DNA of 64,000 nucleotides, taken from a bacterium (GTDB taxonomy: Bacteria; Elusimicrobiota; Elusimicrobia; Elusimicrobiales; UBA9959). This document shows positions 47,688-55,030 of this stretch, one piece after another. Location of the stretch: positions 31,848 through 95,847 of the forward strand of contig JAJYNO010000024.1 of NCBI GenBank assembly GCA_021786295.1. Direction: 5' to 3'. The position numbers were made by a program, and so were the translations under genes. Position 1 is the stretch's first letter. Every line of letters begins with the position of its first letter. The notes below the pieces were generated by a model that was not told the origin of the DNA, did not search any database, and saw only the letters and a list, made by a program, of their open reading frames with translations.

Positions 47688-49928
47688 TCAGGCGGCGGGT
47701 GCGGGGGACTTCAGGAGGGCGTCTATGACGCGGTTGAGCGAAGGGCTGGGGCGCATGGCGGCGCCGGTCTTCGCCGGGTCCGGGTGATAGTAGCCGCCGG
47801 TGTCCACCGGCCTGCCCTGCGCGGCTATCAGCTCCGCGTTTATCTTACCCTCGTCCGCCTGCAGGCCGGCCGCGACGGCCGCGAACCTCTCCTTCAGCGC
47901 CGCGTCCTTGGCCTGGGCCGCCAGCGCCTGCGCCCAGTAAAGGGCCAGGTAGAAGTGGCTGCCGCGGTTGTCTATCTGGCCGACCTTGCGGGCCGGGGAC
48001 TTGTCGTTGTCGAGGAACTTGGCGATGGCCTGGTCCAGCGTCTCCGCCAGCACCAGCGCCTTCTTGTTGCCGAAGGCGTTGCCCAGGTGCTCCAGCGACG
48101 CGCCCAGCGCGGAGAACTCGCCGAGCGAGTCCCAGCGCAGGTAGCCTTCCGCCTGGAACTGCTGCGCGTGCTTGGGGGCCGAGCCGCCCGCGCCGGTCTC
48201 GAAGAGACCGCCGCCGGCCAGCAGCGGGACCACGGACAGCATCTTGGCGCTGGTGCCCACCTCGAGTATCGGGTAGAGGTCGGTCAGGTAGTCGCGCAGC
48301 ACGTTGCCGGTGGCCGAGATGGTGTCCAGCCCCTTGCGGATGCGCCCGTTGGAGTACTGCAGCGCCTCCACGGGCGGGAGGATCTTTATCGTCAGGCCGG
48401 AAATGTCGTGCTCCTTGAGGTACTTCTCCACCTTGTCTATGACCTGCGCGTCGTGGGCGCGGGCTTTGTCCAGCCAGAACACCACGTGCGCGCCGGTGGC
48501 GCGGCCGCGCTTCACCGCGAGCTTCACCCAGTCCCGCACGGGGATGTCCTTCACGCGGCTCATGCGCCAGATGTCGCCTTTCTCCACCTTGTGCTCGAGC
48601 AGCGTTCCGCCGGGGCCGGCGACGCGGACCGTGCCGTCGGCCGGGATCTCGAAAGTGGTCGGGTGGGAGCCGTATTCCTCGGCCTTCTGCGCCATCAGGC
48701 CGACGTTGGGCACGCTGCCCATCGTGGCGGGGTCGAAGGCGCCGTGCTCGCGGCAGTCTTCCAGCATGGCCTTGTAAACGCCGGCGTAGCAGCGGTCCGG
48801 GATCAGCGCCTTGGTCTCCTGCAGTTTGCCCTGCGCGTTCCACATCCTGCCGCCTTCGCGCACGACGACCGGCATGGAAGCGTCTATGATGACGTCGCTC
48901 GAGACATGCAGGTTGGTGATGCCCTTGTCGGAGTTCACCATCGCGAGCGCCGGGCGGGAGGCGTACTGGGCCTTGATGTCGGCTTCTATCTCCGCCTTTT
49001 TCTCGGCCGGCAGGGACTCGAGCTTCTTGTACAGGTCGCCCAGGCCCATATTGGGGTTGACCCCGAGGGCCCGGAAGGTCTCGGCGTGCTTTTTGAAGAC
49101 GTCGGAGAAGAAGACGGAGACCGCGTGGCCGAACAGGATGGGGTCGGAGACCTTCATCATCGTGGCCTTCACGTGCAGCGACAGCAGCAGGCCCTGCTCC
49201 TTCGCCTCTTCTATCTGGTCGGCGTAGAACTTGCGCAGGGCCTTCACGTTCATGAACGTGCCGTCCACGATCTCGCCGGCCTTGCCCTTGACGCTCTTCA
49301 GCAGCGTCGTTTTGCCGTCGGCGCCGACCAGCTCTATCTTGAGCTCTCCGTCTTTGTCGAGGCAGACGGACTTCTCGTTGCCGTAGAAGTCCCCCGCCGT
49401 CATGTGGGCCACGTGGGCCTTGTTGTCCTTGCTCCACGGAGACATCTTGTGTGGGTGCTTTTTGGCGTAGTTCTTGACGGCCATCGGCGCGCGGCGGTCG
49501 GAGTTGCCCTCGCGCAGCACCGGGTTCACGGCGGAGCCCAGCACCTTGGCGTAGCGCTCCTTTATCTCCTTCTCGGGGTCCGTGGCCGGGTTCTCCGGGT
49601 AGTCCGGCACCTTGTAGCCCTGGGCCTGCAGCTCCTTGATGGCGGCCTTGAGCTGCGGCACGGACGCGCTGATGTTGGGCAGCTTGATGATATTGGCTTC
49701 CGGCTTGAGGGTCAGCTCGCCCAGCAGCGAAAGGTTGTCCGGGATGCGCTGCTCCGGGGTGAGGTTCTCCGGGAAGTTGGCCAGGATGCGGCCGGCCAGC
49801 GAGATGTCGCTGGTCTCGAGCTCCACGCCCGTGCCCTTGGTGAAGGCGCTGACTATGGGCAGCAGCGAGTACGTGGCCAGGGCCGGGGCTTCGTCGGTCA
49901 GGGTCCAGTAGATCTTCTGTCCGTTCAT
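47688..49928 (-). CDS. icd: Monomeric-type NADP isocitrate dehydrogenase
   Basis: 746 aa. Length and N-terminus ([22 protein letters not shown]) are typical of monomeric IDH. Confidence 0.92.
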
Positions 49929-49957
49929 GTTGTCTCCTTAAGTCTTTTTCCTAAGGC

Positions 49958-53091: not shown

Positions 53092-53092
53092 G

Positions 53093-55030
53093 TTATTTCC
53101 CCTTGTTGCCGGAGGTGGTGTGGTTCAGGAGGCCGCCCGCGGCCAGTATGGCCCGCTGGCGGTCGGAGCAGCCGCAGCCGCACTCTATCCTGTCTCCGGT
53201 GCGCTCATTCGTAACAAATATCGGCTTGCCGGCCAGGTAATCCTCCCGCCAGTTCCGGCAGGAGAGCCTGTCGCCCTTCTCTATCCTGTCGTAGTCAGCC
53301 GGGTCCTTGAAGGTCAGCGGGGCTATGCCGAAGTTGACCAGGTTGGCGGCGTGGATGCGCTCGAAAGACTTGGCGATCACGGCCTTCACGCCGAGGTACA
53401 TCGGGCACATCGCCGCGTGCTCGCGGCTCGAGCCCTGCCCGTAAGACTCGCCGGCCACTATGATGTTGTGCGACTTGCTCCGCAGGCAGCGCTCGGGGAA
53501 GGTGCTGTCCACATGCTCGAAGACGAACTCCGCGTACTTCGGCACGTTGGAGCGGTACTTGAGGCGCGCGCCGGCCGGCATGATGTGGTCGGTGGTGATC
53601 TTGTCGCCGACCTTTATCATTACCTCGCCGCCCAGGGCCTCGGGCATCTTCCCGTTCCTCGGGGGTTCGCCGATGTTGGGGCCGCGGAAAACCTCGGTCT
53701 TCTTCAGCGCGGCGGTCGGCTTGACGAACATCGTGTCGTCCGCGAGGAACTCGGACGGTTCCTTAACTTCCGGGTAGTCCATGGCGGCCTTGCGTGGGTC
53801 GGTGAACTTTCCGTTCACGGCGGCGAGCGCGGCCACCTCGGGGCTCACCAGGTAGACCTGCGCGTCCTTCGTGCCGCTGCGGGCCTCGAAGTTGCGGTTG
53901 GAGGTGCGCAGGCTGACGCCGCCGCTCTTCGGGGAGAAGTGGTTGCCTATGCAGAAGCCGCAGGCGCTCTCCATGATGCGGGCGCCGGCGCCTATCATGT
54001 CGGCGAGGGCCCCGTTGCGGGCGAGCATCTGCAGTACCTGGCGCGAGCCGGGCGCTATGGCCAGCGTCAGGCCGGGGATGACGGTCCTGCCCTTAAGAAT
54101 AGCGGCCACGGTCATCATGTCGCGGAACGAGGAGTTGGTGCAGGAGCCGATGCACACCTGGTCCACCGGCATGCCGGCCAGCTCGGAGACCTGCTTTATG
54201 TTGCCGGGGCTGTGCGGCGCCGCGGCCAGCGGTTCCAGCGAGGAGAGGTCTATATCTATGACGCGGTCGTACTCCGCGCCCTCGTCGGCCTTCAGCTCTA
54301 TCCAGTCGGCCTCGCGGTCCTGCGCCTTCAGGAACTTCTTGGTGACGGAGTCTGAGGGGAAGATGGAGCAGGTCACGCCCATCTCCGCGCCCATGTTGGC
54401 GATAGTGGCGCGCTGGGGGACGGAGAGGGTCCTGACGCCGGGGCCGCCGTACTCCAGCATCACGCCGACGTTGCCTTTCGTGGTGAGTGTTTCCAGCATC
54501 TTCAGGACCACGTCCTTGGCGGTCACCCAGGGCTTCAGCTCGCCGGTGAGGTTCACCTGGTAGACCTTCGGGCAGACGGTGTAGAAGTTGCCGCCGCCCA
54601 TCGCCACGGCCACGTCCAGGCCGCCGGCGCCGATGGCTATCTGGCCGATGCCGCCGCCCGTCGGGGTGTGGGAGTCGGAGCCGAGCAGCGTGGTCCCGGG
54701 CTTGCCGAAGCGCTCCAGGTGCACCTGGTGGCAGATGCCGTTGCCGGGCCTGGAGAAGACCACGCCGTAACGCGCGGCCACGGTGCGCAGGTAGCGGTGG
54801 TCGTCGGCGTTCTCGAAGCCGACCTGCACCGTGTTGTGGTCGACGTAGGAGACGGAGAGGTCGGTCTTTATCTCCTTGAGGCCCATCGCCTCGAACTGCA
54901 GGTAGGCCATCGTGCCGGTGGCGTCCTGCGTGAGGGTCTGGTCTATGCGGATGCCGATCTCGCTGCCTTTTACGAAGTCGCCTTCTTTGAGGTGGGCGGT
55001 AAGGATCTTTTCCACGATGTTCTGTCGCAT
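53093..55030 (-). CDS. Aconitate hydratase (about 645 aa type)
   Basis: Start at MRQNIVEKIL. IRIDQTLTQDATGT, GSDSHTPTGG, IGSCTNSS and ESCGFCIG Fe-S ligand regions. Confidence 0.9.
   Translation of the reverse strand: MRQNIVEKILTAHLKEGDFVKGSEIGIRIDQTLTQDATGTMAYLQFEAMGLKEIKTDLSVSYVDHNTVQVGFENADDHRYLRTVAARYGVVFSRPGNGICHQVHLERFGKPGTTLLGSDSHTPTGGGIGQIAIGAGGLDVAVAMGGGNFYTVCPKVYQVNLTGELKPWVTAKDVVLKMLETLTTKGNVGVMLEYGGPGVRTLSVPQRATIANMGAEMGVTCSIFPSDSVTKKFLKAQDREADWIELKADEGAEYDRVIDIDLSSLEPLAAAPHSPGNIKQVSELAGMPVDQVCIGSCTNSSFRDMMTVAAILKGRTVIPGLTLAIAPGSRQVLQMLARNGALADMIGAGARIMESACGFCIGNHFSPKSGGVSLRTSNRNFEARSGTKDAQVYLVSPEVAALAAVNGKFTDPRKAAMDYPEVKEPSEFLADDTMFVKPTAALKKTEVFRGPNIGEPPRNGKMPEALGGEVMIKVGDKITTDHIMPAGARLKYRSNVPKYAEFVFEHVDSTFPERCLRSKSHNIIVAGESYGQGSSREHAAMCPMYLGVKAVIAKSFERIHAANLVNFGIAPLTFKDPADYDRIEKGDRLSCRNWREDYLAGKPIFVTNERTGDRIECGCGCSDRQRAILAAGGLLNHTTSGNKGK

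What the first reader, a model, noticed from the sequence alone, without database searches (positions are those of the whole stretch)
47688..55030. Co-directional aconitase - aclB - aclA - monomeric IDH cluster (citrate branch of a reductive TCA cycle?)
Seen: four minus-strand genes with gaps of 1 nt, a 1-nt overlap and 29 nt, so probably one operon. AclA retains the phospho-histidine loop GHAGA and a citrate-synthase-like C-terminus. Established: two-subunit ATP-citrate lyase is the hallmark enzyme of the reductive TCA cycle in Chlorobi, Nitrospirae, Aquificae and Campylobacterota. Aconitase and IDH catalyse the adjoining reversible steps. Inference: packaging exactly the 2-oxoglutarate to acetyl-CoA segment in one transcription unit suggests autotrophic or reverse-TCA capacity in this organism. 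This fits the low-potential menaquinone (futalosine) pathway and the NuoEFG-less complex I in the same window.
Basis: partly seen in the sequence, partly recalled or inferred. Interest (0 to 1): 0.6.

Follow-up and report, generated by a model that had tools for sequence, protein, structure and literature searches.

The report
Aconitase, ATP-citrate lyase, IDH operon
This is a real four-gene operon in a groundwater Elusimicrobiota bacterium that interconverts acetyl-CoA plus oxaloacetate and 2-oxoglutarate through a genuine ATP-citrate lyase, but it is already known in this group and does not by itself show that the organism fixes CO2.

Summary
Four minus-strand genes are acn (53093-55030), aclB (51787-53091), aclA (49958-51787) and monomeric NADP-IDH (47688-49928). 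They are separated by 1 nt, a 1-nt overlap and 29 nt, each has a Shine-Dalgarno-like site, and a hairpin follows IDH.

AclAB is a bona fide ATP-citrate lyase. It scores 881 and 515 bits against the solved Methanothrix concilii enzyme. [quoted passage not shown] The GHAGA loop and lyase motifs are intact.

The host is an Elusimicrobiales MAG. ACL-type reverse-TCA gene sets in groundwater Elusimicrobiota were published in 2022.

New here: acn-aclB-aclA is a conserved core in about 56 of 80 related loci across bacterial and archaeal phyla. It is joined by non-orthologous IDH types in different positions. The module is inherited through Elusimicrobiales, including the cultured gut-genus species Elusimicrobium simillimum.

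So the module marks a reversible citrate node, not autotrophy. No OGOR, POR or fumarate reductase lies in the window or within 10 kb either side. The whole genome could not be searched. Verdict: ordinary, already known, interpretation partly supported.

The parts
53093..55030 (-). acn: aconitate hydratase, 645-aa PRK07229/TIGR01342 type. First gene of the operon.
   Evidence: NF005558 scores 935 bits (cut-off 612) and TIGR01342 scores 864 bits. Pfam finds Aconitase plus Aconitase_C. The public gene call is 645 aa. AAGGAG lies 8 nt before the ATG.
51787..53091 (-). aclB: ATP-citrate lyase small (beta) subunit, with an ATP-grasp domain and a citrate-binding domain.
   Evidence: PF24948 has E 7.7e-73 and PF16114 has E 1.6e-90. 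PDB 6HXI_A scores 515 bits, human ACLY 438 bits and CCS large subunit 55 bits. Motifs GGIANFT (341) and RRGGPNY (377) are present.
49958..51787 (-). aclA: ATP-citrate lyase large (alpha) subunit. It has a CoA-ligase domain with the phospho-histidine loop and a C-terminal citryl-CoA-lyase (citrate-synthase-like) module.
   Evidence: PF00549 plus PF00285. PDB 6HXI_B scores 881 bits (64% identity), human ACLY 805 bits and C. limicola AclA 413 bits. Motifs found are GHAGA 271, ADHGPAVSGAHN 410, GIGHRVKS 484 and NVDGCIG 536. In the alignments the Asp of NVDGCIG aligns with an Ala in 6ZNW_B, the only difference seen from 6HXI_B. The start overlaps the aclB stop by 1 nt (TAATG).
47688..49928 (-). idh: monomeric NADP-dependent isocitrate dehydrogenase. 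Last gene of the operon.
   Evidence: TIGR00178 scores 1248 bits (cut-off 950) and PF03971 scores 1265 bits. A 29-nt spacer with AAGGAG precedes the start.
47575..47596 (.). G+C-rich hairpin about 90 nt after the IDH stop. It is a probable bidirectional terminator shared with the convergent alpha-amylase gene (46078-47553, + strand).
   Evidence: The terminator scan hits this site on both strands. The sequence was read directly.
55031..55166 (.). Intergenic region of 136 nt between acn and the divergent radical-SAM gene (55167-56216, + strand). It is the presumed promoter region of the operon.
   Evidence: Sequence. It has no Rfam match and no consensus sigma-70 hit. The promoter assignment is inferred only.

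Best explanation
The four genes form one transcription unit that encodes a reversible citrate node. The steps are: acetyl-CoA + oxaloacetate + ADP + Pi <-> citrate + CoA + ATP (AclAB), citrate <-> isocitrate (aconitase), and isocitrate + NADP+ <-> 2-oxoglutarate + CO2 + NADPH (monomeric IDH).

Shown: the gene identities, the tight spacing, the intact ACL catalytic motifs, and conservation of the module.

Inferred: in this groundwater Elusimicrobiales organism the module is the citrate arm of a ferredoxin-linked TCA cycle. That cycle can run oxidatively during heterotrophic respiration, with ACL taking the place of citrate synthase and conserving one ATP as in Desulfobacter postgatei. It may also run reductively when reductant and CO2 are abundant. 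The operon is therefore a marker of a bidirectional TCA node, not of obligate autotrophy.
For: - Identity and integrity of ACL, aconitase and IDH.
- Operon structure.
- The acn-aclB-aclA core is conserved in about 56 of 80 loci from Elusimicrobiota, MAGs labelled Pseudomonadota/Deltaproteobacteria/Bdellovibrionales/Myxococcales, Thermoplasmata, Bathyarchaeia and Chloroflexota.
- IDH has been recruited into the module by non-orthologous enzymes in different positions. These are eukaryote-type NADP-IDH between acn and aclB (19 loci; NF006156 at 639 bits), an Iso_dh-family gene after aclA (11 loci) and monomeric IDH after aclA (the window plus 4 loci). This argues for selection on citrate to 2-oxoglutarate flux in general.
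- The module is present in cultured Elusimicrobium simillimum, and the window's AclA nests in a coherent Elusimicrobiales clade.
- Described Elusimicrobia were animal-associated fermenters (abstract of 10.1101/765248). The lineages with NuoEFG-less complex I were predicted to be respiring heterotrophs with a TCA cycle, complex II and cytochrome oxidase.
- ACL works in the citrate-forming, ATP-yielding direction in D. postgatei (Moller 1987, cited in PMC9768450).
- In the sister family Endomicrobiaceae, an oxidative branch with Re-citrate synthase makes 2-oxoglutarate (PMC11257099).
- A heterotrophy-type neighbour, alpha-amylase, lies next to the operon.
Against: - In nearly all studied organisms ACL cleaves citrate. 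Oxidative use is documented for very few organisms.
- Garritano et al. scored related groundwater Elusimicrobiota MAGs as more than 97% complete for ACL-type rTCA, with H2 and sulfite oxidation potential.
- I could not check whether this genome has or lacks a citrate synthase, OGOR, POR, fumarate reductase or an inorganic electron-donor system.
Its heterotrophy is assumed from the genus.
- The direction of flux cannot be read from sequence.
Confidence: 0.45

Rival explanations
1. The operon is the citrate-cleaving arm of a reductive TCA (Arnon-Buchanan) cycle used for autotrophic CO2 fixation. IDH carboxylates 2-oxoglutarate, aconitase makes citrate, and ACL cleaves it to acetyl-CoA and oxaloacetate.
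For: - The ACL is genuine.
- Monomeric IDH is the type that my own recollection assigns to reductive use in Chlorobium limicola. This was not checked here.
- Groundwater Elusimicrobiales (family UBA9959) and order UBA1565 MAGs are reported with MDH, IDH, OGOR, FRD/SDH, ACL, fumarase, aconitase and SCS, and with H2 and sulfite oxidation potential (PMC9802188).
- The habitat is oligotrophic groundwater.
- NuoEFG-less complex I and menaquinone are present in the window.
- In the UBA9628 lineage, PEPCK directly follows aclA, which would route oxaloacetate to PEP.
Against: - The module is also present in cultured Elusimicrobium simillimum and other MAGs assigned to the genus Elusimicrobium. The NJ tree is consistent with vertical inheritance through the order.
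- The same lineages were independently interpreted as respiring heterotrophs.
- No OGOR, POR, FRD or hydrogenase lies in the window or within 10 kb either side.
- The pathway-completeness scoring cannot tell oxidative from reductive use of the shared enzymes.
- NuoEFG-less complex I is equally compatible with oxidising ferredoxin made by OGOR and POR.
Confidence: 0.3
2. This is a purely biosynthetic oxidative branch, a 'horseshoe' TCA. The operon exists only to make 2-oxoglutarate and NADPH for glutamate-family amino acids. ACL replaces citrate synthase, and no complete cycle runs in either direction.
For: - The operon holds exactly the three steps from acetyl-CoA plus oxaloacetate to 2-oxoglutarate.
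- Analogous citrate synthase, aconitase and IDH branches supply 2-oxoglutarate in the related Endomicrobiaceae. From my own knowledge they do so in many anaerobes.
- The module is kept in the roughly 1.9-Mb genome of Elusimicrobium simillimum.
Against: - For this groundwater lineage the literature reports complex II, OGOR (K00174/K00175) and SCS, which points to a complete cycle.
- This reading may fit the gut Elusimicrobium species better than the organism of the window.
Confidence: 0.18
3. AclAB is a paralogue without lyase activity, such as a citryl-CoA synthetase or succinyl-CoA synthetase-like enzyme, and the cluster is not a citrate-cleaving or citrate-forming unit.
For: The NCBIfam library has no ACL model, so the best hits there are sub-threshold SCS, citryl-CoA lyase and citrate synthase models.
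Against: - AclA scores 881 bits to M. concilii ACL and 805 bits to human ACLY, against 74 bits (CCS small subunit), 47 bits (CCL) and at most 91 bits (SCS-alpha).
- AclB scores 515 bits to ACL against 55 bits to CCS large subunit, and has the ACL-specific citrate-binding domain PF16114 at E 1.6e-90.
- The CoA-ligase and lyase modules are fused in one polypeptide with all motifs intact.
Confidence: 0.02

Closest known systems
Methanothrix (Methanosaeta) concilii two-subunit ACLY-A/B (PDB 6HXI, 6ZNW)
   Same: It has the same two-subunit architecture. AclA is 64% identical over 602 residues (881 bits) and AclB scores 515 bits. The phospho-His loop and citryl-CoA-lyase motifs are identical, including the Asp of NVDGCIG, which aligns with an Ala in 6ZNW_B.
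   Different: The host is a methanogenic archaeon. Its gene neighbourhood was not examined here, and its physiological role is also unsettled.
Chlorobium limicola / Chlorobi and Nitrospira AclBA, the classical rTCA hallmark enzyme (PDB 6HXJ)
   Same: It has the same subunit organisation, domain order and chemistry.
   Different: It belongs to a clearly different ACL clade. It scores 413 and 154 bits here, against 881 and 515 bits for the M. concilii type. In Garritano's table, Chlorobi and Nitrospira ACLs are 33-38% identical to S. pombe ACL, Campylobacterota 53-56% and Elusimicrobiota 58.5%. The window's enzyme is of the eukaryote/Campylobacterota/Methanothrix type.
ACL-dependent oxidative citric acid cycle of Desulfobacter postgatei (Moller et al. 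1987)
   Same: ACL is used in place of citrate synthase. This gives one ATP by substrate-level phosphorylation within a ferredoxin-linked TCA cycle that can also run in reverse in related strains.
   Different: That case was demonstrated biochemically. Here it is only an inference. No sequence comparison with the Desulfobacter enzyme was made.
ACL-type rTCA gene sets reported in groundwater Elusimicrobiota MAGs (Garritano et al. 2022, PMC9802188)
   Same: They come from the same phylum and order (Elusimicrobiales), the same habitat and the same ACL type. This is the prior publication of essentially this finding.
   Different: That study scored pathway completeness per MAG. It did not describe the operon, its conservation, the IDH displacement or its presence in the gut genus Elusimicrobium.
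Citryl-CoA synthetase plus citryl-CoA lyase of Hydrogenobacter thermophilus (PDB 6HXQ, 6HXP)
   Same: The domains are homologous and the overall reaction is the same, split over two enzymes.
   Different: The relationship is only distant (74, 55 and 47 bits). Here the ligase and lyase modules are fused in AclA as in true ACL.

Membership tests
Two-subunit ATP-citrate lyase (AclAB, EC 2.3.3.8) | The small subunit has the ACL-type ATP-grasp domain plus the ACL-specific citrate-binding domain. | tested here: met
   PF24948 (E 7.7e-73) and PF16114 (E 1.6e-90) cover residues 2-419 of AclB.
Two-subunit ATP-citrate lyase (AclAB, EC 2.3.3.8) | The large subunit has a CoA-ligase domain carrying the catalytic phospho-histidine loop GHAGA. 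| tested here: met
   PF00549 is found. GHAGA is at residues 271-275 and aligns to the same loop in 6HXI_B.
Two-subunit ATP-citrate lyase (AclAB, EC 2.3.3.8) | A citryl-CoA-lyase (citrate-synthase-like) module with its conserved His motifs and the Asp of NVDG is fused to the C-terminus. | tested here: met
   PF00285 covers residues 386-593. ADHGPAVSGAHN, GIGHRVKS and NVDGCIG are conserved. In the alignments the Asp aligns with an Ala in 6ZNW_B and an Asp in 6HXI_B. That this Asp is catalytic is my recollection of the ACLY literature.
Two-subunit ATP-citrate lyase (AclAB, EC 2.3.3.8) | The proteins are closer to experimentally solved ACLs than to CCS, CCL or SCS paralogues. | tested here: met
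   AclA scores 881 and 805 bits to ACLs, against 74, 47 and at most 91 bits to the paralogues. AclB scores 515 and 438 bits against 55 bits.
Two-subunit ATP-citrate lyase (AclAB, EC 2.3.3.8) | ATP- and CoA-dependent citrate cleavage activity. | not testable with these tools
   This needs an enzyme assay on purified AclAB.
Reductive TCA (Arnon-Buchanan) cycle, ACL variant | A citrate-cleaving enzyme is present. | tested here: met
   The ACL is genuine.
Reductive TCA (Arnon-Buchanan) cycle, ACL variant | 2-oxoglutarate:ferredoxin oxidoreductase and pyruvate:ferredoxin oxidoreductase are present in the same genome. | not testable with these tools
   Pfam annotation shows none in the window or within 10 kb either side. 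A crude motif scan found none in the window, in loci L001-L007 or in the ORFs of the relatives' flanks. The rest of the genome (GCA_027372175.1) cannot be searched. Related MAGs are reported to have OGOR.
Reductive TCA (Arnon-Buchanan) cycle, ACL variant | A fumarate reductase and the remaining cycle enzymes (SCS, fumarase, MDH) are present. | not testable with these tools
   They are absent from the window and its flanks. Relatives are reported to have them (complex II).
Reductive TCA (Arnon-Buchanan) cycle, ACL variant | There is a source of low-potential reductant, and net CO2 fixation or autotrophic growth is demonstrated. | not testable with these tools
   This needs the whole genome plus 13C-labelling or cultivation. 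NuoEFG-less complex I is compatible with autotrophy but not diagnostic of it.
Monomeric NADP-isocitrate dehydrogenase (TIGR00178 / PF03971) | A full-length match above the curated equivalog cut-off. | tested here: met
   The score is 1248 bits against a cut-off of 950, over residues 4-739 of 746.
Aconitate hydratase, PRK07229/TIGR01342 type | A full-length match above the curated cut-off, with both the aconitase catalytic and swivel domains. | tested here: met
   NF005558 scores 935 bits (cut-off 612) and TIGR01342 scores 864 bits (cut-off 719). PF00330 and PF00694 are both found.

The most novel reading that the evidence does not exclude
Throughout Elusimicrobiales, including cultured species of the gut genus Elusimicrobium, the acn-(icd)-aclBA module would be the only citrate-forming route. 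ACL would work as an ATP-conserving citrate synthase (Desulfobacter-type substrate-level phosphorylation), reversibly in the groundwater lineages. 'ACL present' would then not mean autotrophy in this and several other phyla that carry the same module (Thermoplasmata, Bathyarchaeia, Chloroflexota and MAGs labelled Bdellovibrionales or Pseudomonadota). A side speculation: the Elusimicrobium version unites eukaryote-type ACL and eukaryote-type NADP-IDH in one operon, which may bear on the origin of the eukaryotic cytosolic citrate to 2-oxoglutarate enzymes.
Probability: 0.35. Interest if true: 0.55.

Novelty: already known. Interest (0 to 1): 0.27.

Why it matters
ACL is routinely used as the diagnostic gene for reverse-TCA autotrophy in metagenome surveys. 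If the module were truly reductive here, it would support chemolithoautotrophy in groundwater Elusimicrobiota, a claim already published on gene content.

The comparative result has more practical value. The same conserved module sits in a species of the gut genus Elusimicrobium and in many uncultured lineages. It is coupled to whichever IDH type is available. This warns that ACL plus aconitase plus IDH marks a reversible citrate node and not a carbon-fixation pathway.

A cultured carrier, Elusimicrobium simillimum DSM 104966, makes the direction of flux experimentally testable.

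Tried and rejected
1. CCS, CCL or SCS paralogue idea: rejected by the PDB and Pfam scores.

2. I suspected that the 1004-1040-aa 'AclA' hits were mis-called N-extended genes or AclB-AclA fusions. The aclA frame in the window stays open for 994 codons over aclB. This was rejected. P0014 is a tandem AclA-AclA' duplication and has no AclB similarity.

3. Genome-wide search for OGOR, POR, FRD and citrate synthase: not possible. 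A crude scan for a POR/OGOR alpha-subunit motif recalled from memory ([YF][PE][IGVM]TP[SAQGT]) found nothing. It covered the six frames of the window and loci L001-L007, and the ORFs of at least 120 aa in the related loci. This is a weak negative.

4. Literature: Mies et al. 2025 (E. simillimum description) and Herlemann et al. 2009 (E. minutum genome) are not held. The Meheust supplement has no citrate or KO entries. One search returned nothing useful.

5. Rfam and tRNA scans of the window: no hits. There is no leader or riboswitch upstream of acn.

6. Sigma-70 promoter scan: one hit inside IDH, at the level expected by chance. It is uninformative, and the consensus may not apply to this phylum.

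7. My Pfam query of window:46135-47556 on the minus strand returned nothing because I gave the wrong strand. The alpha-amylase gene is on the + strand at 46078-47553.

8. Ribosomal or HGT origin: GC content of the operon (0.635-0.648) equals the window average. There is no sign of recent transfer.

Full report
**Observation**

| Gene | Coordinates | Length |
|---|---|---|
| acn | 53093-55030 | 645 aa |
| aclB | 51787-53091 | 434 aa |
| aclA | 49958-51787 | 609 aa |
| monomeric IDH | 47688-49928 | 746 aa |

- The junctions read TAA-C-ATG (1-nt gap), TAATG (1-nt overlap) and a 29-nt spacer.
- Each start is preceded by a purine-rich Shine-Dalgarno-like site.
- The acn start at 55030, rather than the first in-frame ATG at 55108, agrees with the public gene call of 645 aa. 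It also agrees with end-to-end alignment to the aconitase model.
- No terminator-like site on the minus strand separates the genes. A G+C-rich hairpin at 47575-47596 follows IDH.
- Transcription as one unit is inferred from the spacing. It has not been shown.

**Identity of the enzymes**

- Aconitase scores 935 bits against NF005558 (cut-off 612).
- IDH scores 1248 bits against TIGR00178 (cut-off 950).
- AclB carries the ACL ATP-grasp domain (PF24948) and the ACL-specific citrate-binding domain (PF16114, E 1.6e-90).
- AclA carries the CoA-ligase domain and a citrate-synthase-like C-terminal domain.

Scores against solved structures:

| Comparison | AclA (bits) | AclB (bits) |
|---|---|---|
| Methanothrix concilii ACL (6HXI) | 881 | 515 |
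| Human ACLY | 805 | 438 |
| Chlorobium limicola AclBA (6HXJ) | 413 | 154 |
| Citryl-CoA synthetase | 74 | 55 |
| Citryl-CoA lyase | 47 | not applicable |
| Succinyl-CoA synthetase alpha | at most 91 | not applicable |

- AclA is 64% identical to the M. concilii enzyme over 602 residues.
- The phospho-histidine loop GHAGA (residue 271) and the lyase motifs ADHGPAVSGAHN, GIGHRVKS and NVDGCIG are intact.
- In the alignments, the Asp of NVDGCIG aligns with an Ala in PDB 6ZNW_B, the only difference seen from 6HXI_B.

**Organism and context**

- The identical proteins occur on contigs of NCBI MAGs GCA_027372175.1 and GCA_021836445.1 and of an ENA assembly.
- The nearest AclA homologues (85-94% identity) are all Elusimicrobia or Elusimicrobiales MAGs, many from groundwater.
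- The window also holds the following:
  - futalosine-pathway genes at 1-3.1 kb
  - the dnaA-dnaN-gyrB-gyrA region with a low-GC stretch at 18-20 kb
  - an 11-subunit nuoABCDHIJKLMN operon without nuoEFG at 30.9-40.5 kb
  - nadA
  - an alpha-amylase gene
  - a divergent radical-SAM gene
  - a UbiE-like methyltransferase
  - folD
- No OGOR, POR, fumarate reductase, SCS or hydrogenase gene lies in the window or within 10 kb beyond either end.
- The GC content of the operon equals that of its surroundings.

**Comparative genomics**

This is the main new information. One scan of species-representative genomes with AclA returned 80 loci. I located the window's four proteins in them by tblastn and clustered all flanking ORFs.

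- acn-aclB-aclA in that order and orientation is a conserved core in about 56 loci. This covers nearly every locus with enough upstream sequence.
- The core spans Elusimicrobiota, MAGs labelled Pseudomonadota, Deltaproteobacteria, Bdellovibrionales or Myxococcales, Thermoplasmata, Bathyarchaeia and Chloroflexota.
- No other flanking gene is broadly conserved.

IDH is the only recurrent addition, and it arrives in non-orthologous forms:

| IDH form and position | Loci | Evidence |
|---|---|---|
| Eukaryote-type NADP-IDH (NF006156 639 bits, TIGR00127 554 bits) between acn and aclB | 19, including Elusimicrobium simillimum and the UBA9628 lineage | |
| Iso_dh-family gene directly after aclA, mostly archaeal and Chloroflexota; below equivalog cut-offs, so IDH function is inferred | 11 | |
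| Monomeric IDH directly after aclA | window, L015 and three Thermoplasmata | |
| Monomeric IDH 4-8 kb away on the other strand | 4 | |

- Thirty-one loci show no IDH within the available flank.
- In the window's near relatives the gene order is acn-aclB-aclA, then nadA-GDPD-PHP-nifU, then IDH on the opposite strand.
- The window's four-gene layout is therefore a local rearrangement that brought IDH next to aclA.
- An NJ tree of AclA places the window inside a coherent Elusimicrobiales clade. Its deeper branches are the Elusimicrobium-genus lineages and UBA9628, all with the acn-icd-aclBA layout.
- ACL therefore appears to be vertically inherited in the order, not a recent acquisition tied to a lithotrophic niche. 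The tree is a simple distance tree without support values.

**What is already known**

- Garritano et al. 2022 reported ACL-type rTCA gene sets in four Elusimicrobiota MAGs as a novel finding for the phylum (PMC9802188).
- Their tables list groundwater Elusimicrobiales (family UBA9959) and order UBA1565 MAGs with MDH, IDH, OGOR, FRD/SDH, ACL, fumarase, aconitase and SCS.
- The same tables give identity to S. pombe ACL: 58.5% for the Elusimicrobiota, 53-56% for Campylobacterota and 33-38% for Chlorobi and Nitrospira. This matches the PDB result that the window's ACL is of the eukaryote/Methanothrix type.
- Meheust et al. 2020 interpreted the Elusimicrobia lineages with NuoEFG-less complex I as respiring heterotrophs with a TCA cycle, complex II and cytochrome oxidase. 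They counted K00174/K00175 (OGOR) as the 2-oxoglutarate step.
- The two published readings, reductive and oxidative, therefore already coexist.

**Mechanism**

- Shown: a complete, intact enzyme set for acetyl-CoA + oxaloacetate <-> citrate <-> isocitrate <-> 2-oxoglutarate.
- Established knowledge: the ACL reaction is close to equilibrium. Desulfobacter postgatei uses it in the citrate-forming direction to gain ATP (Moller et al. 1987, cited in PMC9768450).
- Inference: several observations fit a reversible citrate node better than a dedicated carbon-fixation arm.
  - The module persists in a cultured species of the gut genus Elusimicrobium.
  - It has been repeatedly coupled to whatever NADP-IDH is available.
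  - The sister family Endomicrobiaceae makes 2-oxoglutarate through an oxidative branch with Re-citrate synthase.
- My confidences are 0.45 for a bidirectional or oxidative-capable ferredoxin-linked TCA cycle, 0.30 for dedicated rTCA autotrophy, 0.18 for a purely biosynthetic horseshoe branch and 0.02 for a non-lyase paralogue.
It does not discriminate, because a ferredoxin-oxidising complex I suits an oxidative OGOR/POR-based cycle equally well.

**Limits**

- The decisive genome-wide check for OGOR, POR, FRD and citrate synthase in this MAG could not be run with the tools available.
- The heterotrophy of the gut Elusimicrobium species rests on the statement that described Elusimicrobia are animal-associated fermenters (abstract of 10.1101/765248) and on my own knowledge of E. 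minutum.

**Verdict**

The autotrophy inference is only partly supported. The finding is already in the literature at the level of gene content. The conserved acn-(icd)-aclBA module with IDH displacement, and its presence in a cultured Elusimicrobium species, is a modest but useful comparative point. Interest is low to moderate.

Noticed in passing
Not in the window. Proteins P0005, P0006, P0012, P0014, P0016, P0028, P0030 and others; loci L091:8001-11123 and L092:4327-7449.: These AclA homologues of about 1004-1040 aa include at least one tandem AclA-AclA' duplication with complementary degeneration; only P0014 was aligned. In P0014, copy 1 keeps the GHAGA loop but has degenerate lyase motifs (LTADRDPQASGATN, GIGHCTYS). 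Copy 2 lacks the N-terminal part and has a degenerate His loop (GHAALLD) but intact lyase motifs. The gene sits in an aclB-aclA(dup)-icd cluster in MAGs GCA_963992715.1 and GCA_964512465.1.
   Followed up: partly
Window 49958-52942 (- strand).: The aclA reading frame stays open for 385 codons upstream of the true start, giving a 994-aa ORF from a GTG. It overlaps aclB in another frame. This is a high-GC artefact that could mislead gene callers.
   Followed up: yes
Window 47688-49928, compared with L089:16141-18384 and L020-L022.: In the nearest relatives the monomeric IDH gene lies 4-8 kb away on the opposite strand, beyond nadA-GDPD-PHP-nifU. In the window, and in L015, it sits directly after aclA. 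This is a local relocation and inversion that created the four-gene cluster.
   Followed up: partly
L088:7536-8753, L090:7453-8715 and 17 further loci.: In Elusimicrobium simillimum, the UBA9628 lineage and MAGs labelled Pseudomonadota, Deltaproteobacteria or Myxococcales, the IDH inserted between acn and aclB is the eukaryote-type NADP-IDH (TIGR00127, 542-554 bits). One operon thus unites eukaryote-type ACL and eukaryote-type IDH. In UBA9628, GTP-PEPCK directly follows aclA.
   Followed up: partly
Window 30901-40505 (- strand).: This is an 11-gene complex I operon, nuoA-B-C-D-H-I-J-K-L-M-N, with no nuoE, F or G between nuoD and nuoH. [quoted passage not shown]
   Followed up: partly
Window about 11957-19914, with the low-GC stretch at 18000-20000.: dnaA, dnaN, a DciA-domain gene, gyrB and gyrA lie together. 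GC drops to 0.54 next to dnaA, against about 0.64 elsewhere. The window probably spans the chromosomal replication origin.
   Followed up: no
Window 59769-61865 (+) and 61876-63033 (+).: This is an adjacent gene pair. The first is a 698-aa protein with Fer2_4, Pyr_redox_2, a weak 4Fe-4S match, a BFD-like 2Fe-2S domain and a sarcosine-oxidase A3-like domain. The second is a 385-aa DAO-family flavoprotein. From my own recollection, the pair resembles opine, sarcosine or proline dehydrogenase-type two-subunit oxidoreductases; no tool result tests this. The substrate is unknown.
   Followed up: no
Window 55167-56216 (+) and 56221-56967 (-).: A radical-SAM gene with a weak RlmN-like N-terminus lies divergent from acn. 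A UbiE-type methyltransferase gene converges on its 3' end from the opposite strand. The radical-SAM/acn adjacency is conserved in the nearest relatives (cluster c32 in six loci). The function is unknown. A link to menaquinone modification is only a guess.
   Followed up: no
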